Below, piece by piece: positions 43,901 through 49,900 of a stretch of DNA of 64,000 nucleotides. Within the stretch, counting starts at the first letter, position 1. Each line of letters starts with the position of its first letter. Source of the stretch: Chthoniobacterales bacterium (GTDB lineage: Bacteria > Verrucomicrobiota > Verrucomicrobiia > Chthoniobacterales > Chthoniobacteraceae); the NCBI GenBank assembly GCA_038207335.1, contig JBBQZX010000007.1:32001-96000 (forward strand). Reading direction: 5' to 3'. Made by a program: the position numbers.

Positions 43901-46900
43901 CTCGAGGAAGATGTCGCAAAGCTGTGGCCGGAATTCGCGGCGGCAGGAAAAGATGGAATCACGATTGCGGAACTGATGTCGCATCGCGCAGGGCTGCCCG
44001 CGCTGTCGCAAGCGGTGTCGGTCCTCGACTACGCGGCGGTGGTGTCATCTCTCGCGAACGAGCCTCCACACTGGCCTCGCGGCTCGGGGCACGGTTATCA
44101 TCCGCGCACATTCGGGTTCCTGCTCGACGAGCTTTTGCGCCGAATCACCGGCGGCACACCGTTACGCGAATACTGGCGCGCGACGTTCGCCGAACCACTC
44201 GCGCTCGATCTTTGGATCGGGGTTGACTCCAATCGAGTCGAGCAGGTCGCGCCGATTTTCCCCGCGCGCACCACCCTGCCGAAAGGCGACCAGTTTTACA
44301 CCGCCTTCCTCACCGCGGGCTCGTTCACCGCGCGCGCATTCGGCTCGCCGCGCGGACTGCACAGCGTCGCACAAATGAATCTCCCTGCATCGCGCACCGC
44401 TTCGTTTCCGGCGTTTGGCGGCATCGGCACGGCGCAATCTCTGGCGAAATTCTACGCGATGCTCGCCGGCGGCGGCGCGCTTGATGGCCTGGAATTCTTC
44501 AACGCGGAAGCGCTCGCAGCGATGAGCACGACACTCACACAGGGACACGACCGGGTTCTTCAGATCGAAACCGCATTTTCCGCGGGCTTCATGCGCGATC
44601 CCGTCGATTCCGTCGGCTCAAAGTCGCGCGAGAATTTTGGCCCATCGCCGCGCGCCTTTGGTCATCCCGGCGCGGGCGGGAGCCTCGCGTTCGCCGACCC
44701 CGACCAGCGCGTCAGCTTCGCCTACGTGATGAACCAGATGGAGCCCGGCGTGCTACCGAATCGGAAATCGCTGAGGCTCGTCGAAGCGCTTTACGGCTGA
44801 AATCCGGGCGCGCCCGATTTCCTCTCGATGAAACTCCAAAACAAAGTCGCACTCGTGACCGGAGCCACGAGTGGAATCGGCAAAGCCATCGCGGCTCGTT
44901 TCGCAGCGGACGGCGCGCACGTTGTGGTGAATTTCCGGCCTTCGCCGGAAAACGTTGAGAAAGCCGCGGCTCAGATCGCGGGCTACAAGACGCGCGGCAT
45001 AGGAGTCTCGGCGGATGTGTCGAAGCGCGACGACCTCGCGCGACTCGTGGAGAAGACGGTGTCCGAATTCGGACGGCTCGACATCGTGGTGAACAACGCC
45101 GGGATGGAGATCAAAAAGCCATTTCTTGAAGTCACGGACGACGAATGGGAAAAGGTGATCGCGCTGAATCTTTTCGGTCCATTCGCGCTATGCCAGATCG
45201 CTGCGCGCCAAATGGTGGCACAGGGCGGCGGCGGACGAATCATCAATATCTCCTCCGTGCATGAGGACGTCCCGTTCGCCGGTTACACCGCTTATTGCGC
45301 CGCTAAAGGCGGACTGCGAATGCTCACGCGCAATCTCGCGATCGAGCTCGCCCCTCACAAAATCAGCGTGAACAACATCGCGCCGGGCGCAATCGCGACG
45401 CCGATCAACCAAGGCGTGCTCGACAACGCCGAGCAGCTCAAGAACGCGATTTCCGAAATCCCTCTCGGGCGTTTTGGCCGCCCGGATGAAGTCGCCGCGG
45501 TGGCCGCATTCCTCGGGAGCGACGAGGCGGAATACGTCACTGGCAGCACCTATTACATCGACGGCGGACTTACGCAGCAAGTCACGAAGTATTGAGCGCG
45601 TGGCATCATACGATGCGGCGTCCGCGCTCCGCAGCAGTCACGAGACCGCTTTCAAGATTGCGCAGCCGTGTCGTGGCAGAGTAAAAATTTCCGCTTACCC
45701 CGATGCGAGGTAGGCTATGGAGACTGGAGGCGTGTGAAGGAAAAAGGTTCCCGGTTGCCGTGGTCACCGCGGTCGTGAAACCGCATTTTTTTGCGAGGGC
45801 GAACTCACGCAGACCGGCAGCATTCCGCCCACCAAACGGATACGCAAAATGGCGAATCTCGGATTCGAAATGGGCCTCGAGATCACGCTTGGAATCCGAC
45901 ATCTCGGCGGCGGCCTCAGCGAGCGTGAGATTCGCAAGAGTGTGATGCTCGACGCTGTGCGCGCCGATACTCACGAGCGGATCGGCTGCGAGTGTCCGCA
46001 CCTCGCGCCAGTTTAAAATGAGGCTCTTCGCGTAGTCGAGTTGACGCGCATTCTCGGCGGAGAAAATCGCGTCGAGCAAATCCCGCTGCTCCTGTCCACC
46101 GGCGGCTCGGATGAGATGCGCGAGTTCACTAAAGGCGGATTCACGCGCGGCTTCGCCGTGGCAGCGGAACTCGCACGGTTGATCTTTCCAGCGAAACGCA
46201 AGCCGGTCGCGCGCGACGAGCAGACCCTCAAGAGCATACCACCACGGAGTCGCGTTGCCGGAGATGAATCCGGTCGTGACATTCACCGTAAATGGCACCT
46301 CGAACTCGCGGAAAATCGGCAGCGCGTGCGTGAGATTGTCGCGGTATCCATCGTCGAAGGTGAAGGCGATAAATTTACCGCGGCGCGGGTGCGCGAGCCG
46401 CTCTGGCACTGCATCGAGCGCGATCGGATCGAGGCCCCGCGCGCGAATCCATTCGAGGATTTCGCGCAACGTTTCTGGCGTGATTTCGAGCGCGCGATTT
46501 TCCAAAAAAGATGAACGCTCATCGGCTGGCACGACGCGGTGCAGGCAGAGGATGCAGCCAATCCCGCCATAGAGTGGGCGAAGCAAATACGCGAGCGTGG
46601 CGGCCGCGCACGCATGGAGAAATGAGGCGGGCATGATGACTGGGTTGGAAAACCAAGCCCGGAGCCAGCCGTCGGAGTGTGGCTGCTGACCTCCGGTTGA
46701 CGGCTTCCGCCGTTTTCTTTACGCGAGACGCACCGCCGTGGAAAGTGCGGAACAAGCGTGATCATCCCCGCATTTCCTTCATTTTCAGAGCTTTCCGAGC
46801 GCGCCGATTCTCCGGTTTTCGCCGTCGTATTTTGCGCGGAATCCTACAACGCTCTGGCGGTCATTCGCGCGCTCGGGAGGCGCGGCGTGCCGGTGCTCGC

Positions 46901-49900
46901 GCTCGGGCAGGAGGCGGATTCAATCGGCTTCCGTTCGCGCTTCGCGACCGAGAAGGCAGTGTATCCCGACCCTGTCGTGGACGAAGCGGGCTTTGTCGCG
47001 CGCGTGTCAGAACTCGGCGCGCGCCTCGCCACGAGGGGTGTGCGCGCGGTCACGTTTCCGAGCAGTGATCGCGTCGTTCGCATTTTGTCGGATCATCGGG
47101 AAAGCCTGGGGAAATACTTCCAGCTCTTCCTGCCATCCCGCGAAAGCGTCGCGGCGTGCCTCGACAAGCTGGCGCAATATCGCGTGGCCGCCGAAATTGG
47201 CGTCCCATTTCCGCGCACCTATTCCAACGGACAGGAGGACGAACTGCTCGCGGATCTCGCGGCGGAGCGTGCGCGGCTGCCGCTTTTTTTCAAGTCGCGC
47301 GGCCCGCTGCCCGATCACGAACTCAACCGACGCTTCCGGCGAGTGGTGCTCTCGGAGCGCGAGCAGGTTGCCACGATGCTGCGGGAGGCTGGTGAATGCG
47401 GCGTGCTTTTCGTGGTGCAGGAAATCATCCCTGGCGCGGACGATCAGCTCTACACGCTTGGAGCGACGATGGATGGAAACGGGGGAGTTCTCGCTGCTTT
47501 CACCGGGCGGAAGCTGCGGCAGATGCCTCCCGGATTCGGCATTTGCCGCGTCGGCGAAACGGTGGATACACCCGCGGTTCTCGATCACGGCGAGCGTCTT
47601 TTGCGTGCGCTGGAGTTCCGCGGGATTTCGCAGGTCGAGTTCAAATTCGATGTCCGCGATGGGGAGTTCAAACTCATGGAGGTGAACCCTCGAAGCTGGT
47701 CGTGGGTCGGCCTGCCGATCGCACTCGGATGCGATTTGCCTTACGCCGCGCTTTGCGCCGCGCTCGGGTTTTCACTCACCGGAAAAGTCTCTACACCGTC
47801 CGGGAAAGCGCTCTGGATCTCACTTTCCCACGATCTCGATTACTCCGTAAGCTGCCGAGATGGGCGTCCGTGGGCGCATCTTTTTCGCGGATACGATCGA
47901 GTCGTGGAGGCATATCACGCGAGCGACGACCGCGGACCTGGTATCGCGCACTTTCGCACAACGGCGCTCGATTTTGCCGCGCGCAGCGTTCGGAAACTCG
48001 GCAAGCTCGTCGGGATTACCGCTCGAAAAACCACCCCACCATGAAACGTCTCAAACTCCCGTCGCGTTCCGCAAAACCGCGCAAACACGGGCTCACAGCG
48101 ATCACCGACCTCGGCCTCACTGTCGCGGGACTGCGCGAATTGCTCACCGAATTCCACGACTATCTCGACATCGCGAAATTCGGAATTGGCACTGCGTATC
48201 TCACTCCGCGGCTTGATGAAAAACTCGCGATTTACCGCGAGTTCGGCGTCGTGCCGTATTTTGGTGGCACGCTTTTCGAGAAGTTTTTCCACCAGAAAAA
48301 GGTGGTCGATTACGTGAAGTATCTGCGCCAGCACGGAGTCGATTGGATCGAGATTTCCAATGGCACGATCGAACTCCCGCTGGCGCAGCGCGTGAAGCTC
48401 GTGAAGGAGCTCCGCGGTGAGTTCAAAGTCGTTTGCGAAGTCGGCTGCAAGGACGCGACGAAAGTGATGCCGCCCTCGGAGTGGATCGAGGAATTGCAGG
48501 CGACGCTCGATGCAGGCGCGAGCTACGTCATCACCGAGGGACGCGACTCGGCCACCGCGGGGCTTTACCGCGAGTCGGGTGAAATCCGCGAGGGACTGCT
48601 CTCGGACATCCTGAAATCCGTGGACCCGAAGCGCACGATTTTCGAAGCACCAACGCACCGCACTCAGATGTTTTTCATCAATCTCGTGGGCGCAGATGTG
48701 AATCTCGGCAACATCGCCGCGCACGATCTCCTCGTGCTCGAAGCAGAGCGGCGCGGGCTGCGTTACGAGACGTTTTTCAACAAGTGAAGCTCGTGCTCGT
48801 GCGGCATTTGGCGACCACGTGGAATCTCGATGGACGCCTGCAGGGACACCGCGACATCCCGCTCGCTCCGCTCGATTCTGCCGCGCGCACCGCACTCGAA
48901 AGCCTGCGCGCATCGCTCGTCACGCATGGGCCATTCGACGCCATTTTTTGCAGCACGCTGCAACGCACTCGGCAGACCGCTGAACTCTGCGGCTTCGAAG
49001 CTGTTCGCGAGGATCCGCTGCTTGACGAATTGGACTTCGGGAAGTGGGAGGGAGCGCGGCGCGAGGAGTTCCTCGCGTCGGAAGGCGACGCGTGGAGATC
49101 ACATCCCGAGACGCTCGCGTTCGGCGAGACGATGCGCGCATTCGAGGCGCGCGTCCGTCATTGGATGAGCCTGCACAAAGGATCCGCGAGCGTGCTCGCA
49201 TTCGGCCACGGCGCATGGATGCGCGCTGCTCGCGCCATTTCGGAAACAGGGCAAATCACCACGATGAACCGCAGCGAACTCGTGAACAGCGCGGTTTTGA
49301 TCCTGCGTCCGCCTTCGGACTAAATCCTCTCATTCGCAGCGACGGCTGACTCGCTCGCGTGCGGCAGCGGGGTTCGCAGATTCCGCTTTCCCGTCGATGA
49401 GGCGCGCGTGCTCGCCGAGGAGGTATCGGTCGGTCATGCCGGAAAGGTAATCGCAGACAGTGCGGTGGAGGCCGTCGTGTTTCACTCGTCGAGCGGTGGC
49501 AGCACCGAGTAGTTCGGGCTCGGCGAGATATGCCTCGAATACTTTTTTGAGCATCACGCAGGCGCGCTGGTTCACGCCGGCGACGCGTGGGTGGTAGTAG
49601 AGATTTTTGTAGAGAAAGCGGCGCAGCTTCTTATTTCCGGCGAGAAGCGGGAGGCTGTAGCGGATCAGCGGCTTTTTCTGACGGCGGACATCGTCGGCGC
49701 TTTGCACGTCGGCAGTGGCGATGAGTTCGTCGCTGGTCGCGATGACATCCTGGACCTGCCGATCGATGATGCAGCGGATGACGTAGCTGTGCAGTTCCTT
49801 CGCGCGGAGTTTTGGAAAACTTGCGCGTACCTCGGCGTAACTTTCGTCCCACACCTCGAGTTCGCTGAGCTGCCGCGGTGTGATGAGTGCAAAGTCGAGT

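What a model noticed while it worked through the whole genome (the two positions that open the first line are those of the whole stretch)
45606..49323. Phosphosulfolactate synthase coupled to an ATP-grasp ligase, a histidine phosphatase and a polysaccharide deacetylase
comA here is not in a coenzyme M or spore context but in an operon with a D-aspartate-ligase-like ATP-grasp enzyme and a histidine phosphatase, beside a polysaccharide deacetylase. The recurring trio suggests sulfolactate is made and ligated to an amine on a surface glycan.
Evidence so far: Call 83 (proteins). Of 8 metagenome loci (about 6 distinct), 5 have the ATP-grasp gene directly upstream of comA at 60% identity, 4 the phosphatase downstream, and one also the deacetylase next to glycosyltransferases (191, 192). 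ComA in only 4 of 150 family genomes (33).
(Added by a program. Inside this text positions count along the whole contig: contig position 32,001 is position 1 of the stretch shown here. "Call 12" and the like, gene names such as g00115 and contig names such as C1 are that model's own, and its searches are not shown. The text may have been shortened before it was handed on; [...] marks where a part breaks off. The agent that wrote the report below was given it as the finding of a first reader that could run no searches.)

Follow-up and report, generated by a model that had tools for sequence, protein, structure and literature searches.

The report
Sulfolactate make-and-attach gene cassette
Three tightly packed genes most likely make the sulfur-bearing acid sulfolactate and join it by an amide bond to an amino sugar of the cell surface, one version of what looks like an undescribed set of swappable cassettes for putting sulfonate groups on bacterial surface sugars.

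Summary
The genes are real and intact. ATP-grasp ligase, comA and histidine phosphatase overlap by four bases each; the deacetylase is divergent, outside that unit. The ligase belongs to a distinct subfamily: comA lies beside it in 7 of 9 distinct loci, in three gene orders, against 1 of 71 loci of more distant ligases. ComA is fused to a histidine phosphatase in 11 of 120 longer homologues. Relatives swap the third enzyme for a glyoxalase (the pair proposed to supply misaugamycin's 2-sulfoacetyl amide) or for an XcbC-like lyase plus a flavin oxidoreductase. In one genus relative the ligase-comA-glyoxalase block fills the slot that an acyltransferase-KASIII-ACP block fills in this genome's Wzm/Wzt amino-sugar locus. 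Best reading (0.5): N-sulfolactylation of a surface amino sugar. Against: no glycan genes flank the cassette here, the deacetylase mostly occurs without it, and product and acceptor are inferred. Nine paper searches found no description. This scan reported the same kind of cassette on other DNA at least five times.

The parts
45606..46634 (-). CE4-type polysaccharide deacetylase, 342 aa, divergent from the trio; accessory, may free the acceptor amine
   Evidence: PF01522 74 bits; D94, D95, H226, H230 invariant in 9 of 9 aligned homologues; same divergent layout in L008, L148, L013/L018; present in 27 of 151 family genomes
46635..46757 (.). 123-bp gap between divergent genes, presumed shared promoter region
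   Evidence: Sequence; no sigma-70 consensus found, 0 sites against 0.9 expected
46758..48044 (+). ATP-grasp carboxylate-amine ligase, 428 aa, member of a distinct comA-linked subfamily
   Evidence: Score gap 280 to 233 bits after hit 51; K137, K179, E294, E308, N310, R312 invariant in 46 of 46; model pLDDT 95.6; best structural matches 2pn1 Z 29.6 rmsd 2.9 over 297 residues, PurK 25.1, PylC 25.0, L-amino acid ligase 23.9
48041..48787 (+). ComA, (2R)-phospho-3-sulfolactate synthase, 248 aa
   Evidence: PF02679 255.7 bits; 191 bits to PDB 1u83 and 139 bits to 1qwg; K46, E80, E104, E133, K137, E166, R168 shared with Xanthobacter XcbB
48784..49323 (+). Histidine phosphatase (branch 1), 179 aa, probable stand-in for ComB
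   Evidence: PF00300 107.9 bits; R7, H8, R61, E82, H142 invariant in 7 of 7 cassette copies; ComA-PF00300 fusions in 11 of 120 longer ComA homologues

Best explanation
A make-and-attach cassette for a sulfonated acyl group. (1) ComA adds sulfite to phosphoenolpyruvate, giving (2R)-phospho-3-sulfolactate (family function shown for homologues; inferred here). (2) The histidine phosphatase removes the phosphate in place of ComB, before or after ligation (inferred). (3) The ATP-grasp enzyme activates the C1 carboxylate as an acyl phosphate and forms an amide with a free amine (family chemistry; substrate inferred). (4) The amine most likely belongs to an amino sugar of a surface polysaccharide or O-antigen precursor, supplied by the divergent deacetylase or by a DegT aminotransferase encoded elsewhere (inferred, least certain). 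The product is an N-(3-sulfolactyl) sugar with a carbon-sulfur-linked, permanently anionic group.
For: Linkage: comA beside the ligase subfamily in 7 of 9 distinct loci of 29-68% GC, in three gene orders; the other two contigs are under 3 kb and carry a phosphatase fragment (L020) or flavoprotein plus XcbC-like lyase (L021); distant ligases 1 of 71 (1 of 20 loci of 10 kb or more). Contig-length pairing 16 of 49 against 0 of 69; distances of 22 ligase/ComA pairs correlate, Mantel r 0.89. Fusions among 120 listed longer ComA homologues: ComB 68, AMP-forming ligase 26, histidine phosphatase 11, PAPS reductase 4, ATP-grasp 1, Acyl_transf_3 1. Glycan context: glycosyltransferases adjacent in 4 of 9 loci, with Wzm/Wzt in L008. 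Variants: glyoxalase with DegT and Wzm/Wzt in L151 and L152; XcbC-like lyase (41% to XcbC) and FAD_binding_2 protein in L068 and L021, L068 within a flippase/Wzy locus with a deacetylase. Slot swap with an acyltransferase-KASIII-ACP block. The genome has two adjacent PF01507 genes and four full-length DegT genes. Precedents: ComA plus glyoxalase cassette predicted to supply a 2-sulfoacetyl amide, favoured by sulfite feeding (PMC9136965, passages); ATP-grasp amidation then dephosphorylation of a capsule (PMC11800379, passages).
Against: No glycan synthesis or export gene flanks the cassette in this window or in L013/L018; 4 of the 9 loci are too short to show context. The deacetylase occurs in 27 of 151 family genomes, the ligase subfamily in 3 of 151. 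The genome's own DegT/Wzm/Wzt locus, about 97 kb away, already has an ACP-based acyl module, so the acceptor here is unidentified. A separate comB exists on another contig, so the phosphatase could have another job. This ComA clade has Ile/Val where PDB 1qwg and 1u83 have Trp (query position 49) and Asp for Glu at position 169; it scores 208.6 against the 280 cut-off of TIGR03849. No characterised ligase is closer than about 18% identity. The slot swap is one pair of genomes and involves a different ligase subfamily (about 25% identical). Related genomes share linked genes by descent, so the Mantel value does not show co-evolution.
Confidence: 0.5

Rival explanations
1. Same acid, but the amine acceptor is a small molecule, lipid or peptide (an osmolyte, sulfonolipid or secreted amide), not a glycan.
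For: The cassette stands among housekeeping genes here and in L013/L018. ComA supplies sulfoacyl groups to a peptide antibiotic (PMC9136965) and is fused to AMP-forming ligases in 26 of 120 longer homologues and to ligase-ACP in L166. Structural neighbours include L-amino acid ligases and PylC.
Against: Where context is visible it is usually a surface-glycan locus (L008, L015, L016, L017, L068, L151, L152); the divergent deacetylase is retained in 3 of 9 loci; no transporter, ACP or peptide synthetase lies in the cassette.
Confidence: 0.2
2. Different chemistry: the ComA clade adds another nucleophile to PEP, or sulfolactate acts through its freed 2-hydroxyl as an ester-forming nucleophile on a uronic acid, in the manner of D-Ala-D-Lac ligase (recalled).
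For: Clade-specific substitutions near the conserved Lys46 and Arg168; no sulfite-supplying gene in the cassette; in C. jejuni the glycan gives the carboxylate and the small molecule the nucleophile (PMC11800379).
Against: The charged residues shared with 1qwg and XcbB are kept; other ComA proteins are fused to PAPS reductase, APS kinase or TauE in 7 of 120; the same ligase subfamily occurs with an XcbC-like lyase and flavoprotein (L021), whose expected product has no hydroxyl.
Confidence: 0.15
3. An orphan remnant: the cassette was cut out of a glycan locus and has no acceptor in this organism.
For: Absent at DNA level from 20 of 20 relatives whose flanking genes do match; no glycan genes nearby.
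Against: All four frames are intact, coupled and keep catalytic residues; GC 58-64% is like the host's; the same stand-alone four-gene layout recurs in L013/L018.
Confidence: 0.1
4. ComA and phosphatase are a sulfite sink for a sulfation pathway; the ligase works on something else.
For: Sulfotransferases lie near comA in L068 and L151, and one ComA is fused to a sulfotransferase (P0241).
Against: The ligase-comA linkage survives gene-order shuffling and is specific to the subfamily; no sulfotransferase lies in the window cassette.
Confidence: 0.05

Closest known systems
ComA-ComB steps of archaeal coenzyme M synthesis and the Bacillus-type phosphosulfolactate synthase (PDB 1qwg, 1u83; pathway text in PMC9457059)
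   Same: ComA family enzyme with shared charged residues, followed by a phosphatase
   Different: Phosphatase is PF00300, not ComB; no ComC or ComDE in the cassette; an amide ligase follows instead
misNOPQ cassette of the misaugamycin cluster (ACP, acyl-CoA ligase, phosphosulfolactate synthase, glyoxalase; PMC9136965, passages)
   Same: ComA-derived sulfonic acid attached to an amine as an amide; the ComA-glyoxalase pair also occurs beside ATP-grasp genes in L151 and L152
   Different: Acceptor is a peptide antibiotic; activation by acyl-CoA ligase and ACP; product sulfoacetyl; the cassette's role is predicted in that paper; orthology of the glyoxalases was not tested
C. jejuni capsule amidation, Cj1438 ATP-grasp domain and Cj1435 phosphatase (PMC11800379, passages)
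   Same: ATP-grasp amide ligase plus phosphatase decorating a surface polysaccharide
   Different: Opposite polarity (uronic acid carboxylate plus small amine), TupA-like ligase, HAD phosphatase, no sulfonate
D-aspartate ligase AslA/Aslfm (PMC4155827, passages)
   Same: ATP-grasp ligase that activates a small acid as an acyl phosphate; database names of several homologues
   Different: Acts on peptidoglycan lysine with racemase-made D-Asp; no racemase in this cassette; not compared directly
Bacterial coenzyme M pathway XcbB-XcbC (PMC9457059, part 1 of 5)
   Same: ComA first step; XcbC-like lyase in variant loci L068 and L021 (41% identity)
   Different: The window has no XcbC; the variants carry a ligase and a flavoprotein, and no XcbD or XcbE was seen on those short contigs
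Sulfonated peptidylamido-glycan of C. difficile type B flagellin (PMC5207245, abstract)
   Same: A sulfonate joined through amides to an amino-deoxy sugar on a bacterial surface
   Different: The sulfonate is taurine within a peptide cap, not a PEP-derived acyl group

Membership tests
ComA / phosphosulfolactate synthase (PF02679) | Profile match over the curated cut-off | tested here: met
   255.7 bits against 25.2
ComA / phosphosulfolactate synthase (PF02679) | Charged residues shared with characterised enzymes (1qwg, XcbB) | tested here: met
   K46, E80, E104, E133, K137, E166, R168 align; that they line the active site is recalled; Trp to Ile at 49 and Glu to Asp at 169 differ from 1qwg
TIGR03849 archaeal ComA equivalog | Score over 280 bits | tested here: not met
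   208.6 bits
ComA / phosphosulfolactate synthase (PF02679) | Sulfite addition to PEP | not testable with these tools
   Needs an enzyme assay
Archaeal coenzyme M pathway | ComB, ComC, ComDE with ComA | tested here: inconclusive
   None in the cassette; a comB lies on another contig; ComC and ComDE were not searched genome-wide
Bacterial coenzyme M pathway (xcbABCDE) | XcbC-type lyase beside ComA | tested here: not met
   None in the window; best genome match to XcbC is 28.6% on another contig
misNOPQ sulfoacetyl cassette | ACP, acyl-CoA ligase and glyoxalase beside ComA | tested here: not met
   None beside comA; the L152 glyoxalase finds no match in the genome at E 1e-5
ATP-grasp carboxylate-amine ligases | ATP-grasp fold with conserved Lys and Glu-x-Asn residues | tested here: met
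   the role of these residues is recalled
D-aspartate ligase (AslA/Aslfm) | Orthology to the characterised enzyme | not tested
   Its sequence was not fetched; only database names; no family model matched over cut-off
D-aspartate ligase (AslA/Aslfm) | Aspartate racemase in the operon (PMC4155827) | tested here: not met
   Neighbours are comA, phosphatase, deacetylase
Histidine phosphatase branch 1 | RH motif, second Arg, acid Glu, C-terminal His | tested here: met
   PF00300 107.9 bits; residues invariant; below every NCBIfam equivalog cut-off
CE4 polysaccharide deacetylase | Asp-Asp motif and metal-binding His pair | tested here: met
   PF01522 over cut-off; D94, D95, H226, H230 invariant; substrate not testable

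The most novel reading that the evidence does not exclude
Bacteria have a modular, exchangeable system for N-sulfoacylating surface amino sugars: ComA makes phosphosulfolactate, a swappable tailoring enzyme sets the acyl group (phosphatase: sulfolactyl; glyoxalase: sulfoacetyl; XcbC-like lyase plus flavin reductase: sulfoacrylyl or 3-sulfopropionyl), and an ATP-grasp ligase attaches it, the whole block being interchangeable with ordinary ACP-based N-acyl modules in O-antigen and capsule loci. This would be an undescribed class of carbon-sulfur sulfonated glycans and the main job of many 'orphan' bacterial comA genes.
Probability: 0.42. Interest if true: 0.8.

Novelty: new variant of a known kind. 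Interest (0 to 1): 0.62.

Why it matters
ComA is known from coenzyme M and spore sulfolactate, yet thousands of homologues sit in bacteria that need neither (8000 of 8000 scored candidates matched). A route from PEP and sulfite to sulfonated surface sugars would give many of them a function, add a sulfatase-proof, strongly acidic decoration to the known glycan modifications, point to a new biological source of sulfolactate and related organosulfonates in soils and sediments, and offer a three-enzyme tool for sulfonating amino sugars. It is directly testable with three small soluble proteins.

Tried and rejected
Genome-collection scan with the single ComA found 1 locus only. Viral contigs: 0 of 256 pattern matches encoded a ComA relative. 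Plasmids: 47 ComA records and 99 ligase records, none a close relative; 4 of the 47 ComA regions were opened (coenzyme M, sporulation, NRPS/PKS, ligase-ACP fusion) and none had the cassette. Phylum and class samples: ComA in 7 of 401 and 11 of 401; the full-length hits examined belong to a distant clade (24-28% identical) with no ligase or phosphatase match nearby; two class hits were fragments at contig ends and gave no context. Class search with the ligase profile: 10 of 400 other genomes have only distant ligases, without comA within 1.5 kb. No RNA holder listed, so expression is open. Promoter scan uninformative. ESM Atlas gave only unnamed carboxylate-amine ligase clusters. No solved structure of a characterised close ligase appeared; absence from the list excludes nothing. 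The tblastn parts printed nothing through a script fault and are not used; one search replaces them. The one supplement file of PMC9136965 held as text had none of the terms, so its Figure S54, which proposes the sulfoacetyl route, was not seen. The XcbC paper asked for by DOI is not held. The SAR11 mention of phosphosulfolactate synthase (PMC11796062, passage) concerns a transporter island and does not bear on this. Coenzyme M synthesis and peptidoglycan D-Asp ligation were rejected as the function because their partner genes are missing from the cassette.
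Full report
Observation. The four genes are at the stated place. 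A CE4 deacetylase (45606-46634, minus strand) faces away from three plus-strand genes that overlap by four bases each: ATP-grasp ligase (46758-48044), comA (48041-48787) and histidine phosphatase (48784-49323). Pfam confirms ComA, His_Phos_1 and Polysacc_deac_1 over their cut-offs; the ligase matches only weakly, but its model (pLDDT 95.6) is a complete ATP-grasp fold, nearest to uncharacterised 2pn1 (Z 29.6, rmsd 2.9, 297 aligned), then PurK, PylC and an L-amino acid ligase at 13-17% identity. Catalytic-type residues are kept in all four proteins. The flanks are a short-chain dehydrogenase and an HD-domain phosphohydrolase; by ORF listing no glycosyltransferase or exporter lies nearby, though most of the wider window was listed, not scanned against Pfam. 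The ligase-comA-phosphatase stretch matches none of 20 relatives at DNA level, while the flanking genes do.

Is the linkage real? The ligase has about 50 close homologues, separated from the rest by a score gap (280 to 233 bits). A metagenome scan with their alignment kept the best 80 of at least 592 loci. With two family genomes added and duplicates merged (L013 with L018, L017 with L019, L008 with L153) there are 9 distinct subfamily loci: comA is adjacent in 7, a full phosphatase in 6, the divergent deacetylase in 3 plus a fragment; the two without comA are under 3 kb and carry another module gene. Three gene orders occur, at 29-68% GC. Of 71 loci of more distant ligases, 1 has comA (1 of the 20 that are 10 kb or longer). 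Independently, 16 of 49 subfamily proteins share a contig length with a top ComA hit against 0 of 69 distant ones, and distances of 22 pairs correlate (Mantel r 0.89); this shows joint inheritance, not co-evolution. Glycosyltransferases are adjacent in 4 of the 9 loci (with Wzm/Wzt in L008), absent in 1 (L013/L018) and not visible in 4 short contigs.

What each part does. ComA shares the charged residues of PDB 1qwg and of Xanthobacter XcbB, for which phosphosulfolactate synthase activity is reported (PMC9457059, part 1 of 5). Among 120 listed longer homologues (of 123) ComA is fused to ComB in 68, an AMP-forming ligase in 26, a histidine phosphatase in 11, PAPS reductase in 4, TauE in 2, and once each to an ATP-grasp ligase, an Acyl_transf_3 domain, APS kinase and a sulfotransferase. 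The phosphatase fusions make it a plausible ComB substitute, and the ligase fusions show that ComA products are commonly activated for acyl transfer; single fusions may be assembly artefacts. The genome has two adjacent PF01507 genes that could supply sulfite and a separate comB. The deacetylase is not dedicated: it occurs in 27 of 151 family genomes against 3 of 151 for the ligase subfamily; in the 19 other loci examined its neighbours include GNAT acyltransferases and ketoacyl-synthase-like genes (some labels recalled from the sequences). It looks like a general amine-freeing partner of varied acyl modules.

Variants. Of the 5 other family genomes with ComA, 4 have it beside an ATP-grasp gene. 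In two (L151, L152) a different ligase subfamily, comA and a glyoxalase lie in Wzm/Wzt loci with a DegT aminotransferase. The same ComA-glyoxalase pairing occurs in the misaugamycin cluster, where it is predicted to supply a chemically established 2-sulfoacetyl amide and sulfite feeding favours that product (PMC9136965, passages; its Figure S54 was not seen). In L068 and L021 an XcbC-like lyase (41% to XcbC) and an FAD_binding_2 protein accompany the ligase, suggesting sulfoacrylate or 3-sulfopropionate; L068 also has comA, a flippase, a weak Wzy match and a deacetylase. Finally, this genome's own contig carries, about 97 kb beyond the cassette, a locus orthologous to L151 (blastn 69-76%): between wzt and a conserved sulfotransferase-acyltransferase-GT2-DegT run, L151 has ligase-comA-glyoxalase, whereas this genome has a sulfotransferase, a hexapeptide acyltransferase, an unknown gene, KASIII and ACP. 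In this one pair the ComA block occupies the place of an acyl-supply module. Because the other variants' expected acids lack a hydroxyl, the shared handle is the carboxylate, which favours an acyl-donor role.

Mechanism. PEP plus sulfite gives phosphosulfolactate; the phosphatase gives sulfolactate; the ligase forms an acyl phosphate and then an amide with an amino sugar of a surface glycan (0.5). The order could be ligation first, as in the C. jejuni Cj1438/Cj1435 pair (PMC11800379, passages). Shown here: genes, folds, motifs, linkage, fusions, contexts. Inferred: every reaction, the product and the acceptor. Rivals are a non-glycan acceptor (0.2), altered chemistry (0.15), an orphan remnant (0.1) and a sulfite sink (0.05). 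The weakest point is this genome itself: the cassette stands alone and its nearest candidate glycan locus already has an acyl module.

Literature and novelty. Nine searches of a library that lacks most subscription journals showed no description: 'sulfolactyl' 0 papers; ComA with sulfolactate, gene cluster and glycosyltransferase 0; the 38 listed papers naming phosphosulfolactate synthase were seen as titles and abstract starts, three of them read in part. For some searches only the top 20-30 rows were seen. A taurine-containing amido-glycan is known from C. difficile flagellin (PMC5207245, abstract), and D-aspartate ligase chemistry from a review (PMC4155827, passages). The parts and logic each have precedent; the combination and predicted product do not, so I class it as a new variant of a known kind. 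Earlier unchecked notes of this scan describe the same cassette type in other genomes, a sulfoacetyl version in an archaeon and an XcbC version in Asgard archaea; they agree but are not independent support. The misaugamycin link and the slot swap did not appear in the notes returned.

Noticed in passing
L175:5356-15879 (own genome, contig C7 about 177-188 kb, outside the window): Wzm/Wzt polysaccharide locus with APS kinase, two sulfotransferases, hexapeptide acyltransferase, KASIII, ACP, Acyl_transf_3, GT2 and DegT: a probable sulfated, N-acylated surface glycan.
   Followed up: partly
L166:5604-10475 (plasmid NZ_CP071528.1): Aminotransferase class I/II, a 970-aa AMP-binding/ACP/ComA fusion and ComB in one run: possibly a sulfonolipid or other sulfoacyl route.
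   Followed up: partly
P0248-P0293 group: ComA fused to AMP-forming acyl ligases in 26 of 120 longer homologues; single fusions to LPG_synthase_TM, a methyltransferase and a fumarate hydratase.
   Followed up: no
L009:9744-10580, L154:9156-9995: A distant ComA clade (24-28% identical) that lacks the Lys137 and Arg168 equivalents and sits in unrelated contexts; probably not a sulfolactate synthase.
   Followed up: partly
L168:7864-18684 (plasmid NZ_CP108119.1): ComA between SbnB and ACP/ketosynthase/NRPS genes; six Streptomyces plasmid records give the same match, a candidate sulfonated natural product cluster.
   Followed up: no
L123, L124: Same-genus orthologues of the deacetylase (68% and 62%) lie at another locus, divergent from a methyltransferase and sulfatase-like gene or from a GNAT.
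   Followed up: partly
window 18156-19337 (-): Hydrophobic 393-aa ORF that looks like a membrane-bound O-acyltransferase (recalled from the sequence, not scanned).
   Followed up: no
window 53382-57580: Divergent pair of a 573-aa secreted-looking protein with two similar halves and an 809-aa outer-membrane-looking protein; not annotated.
   Followed up: no
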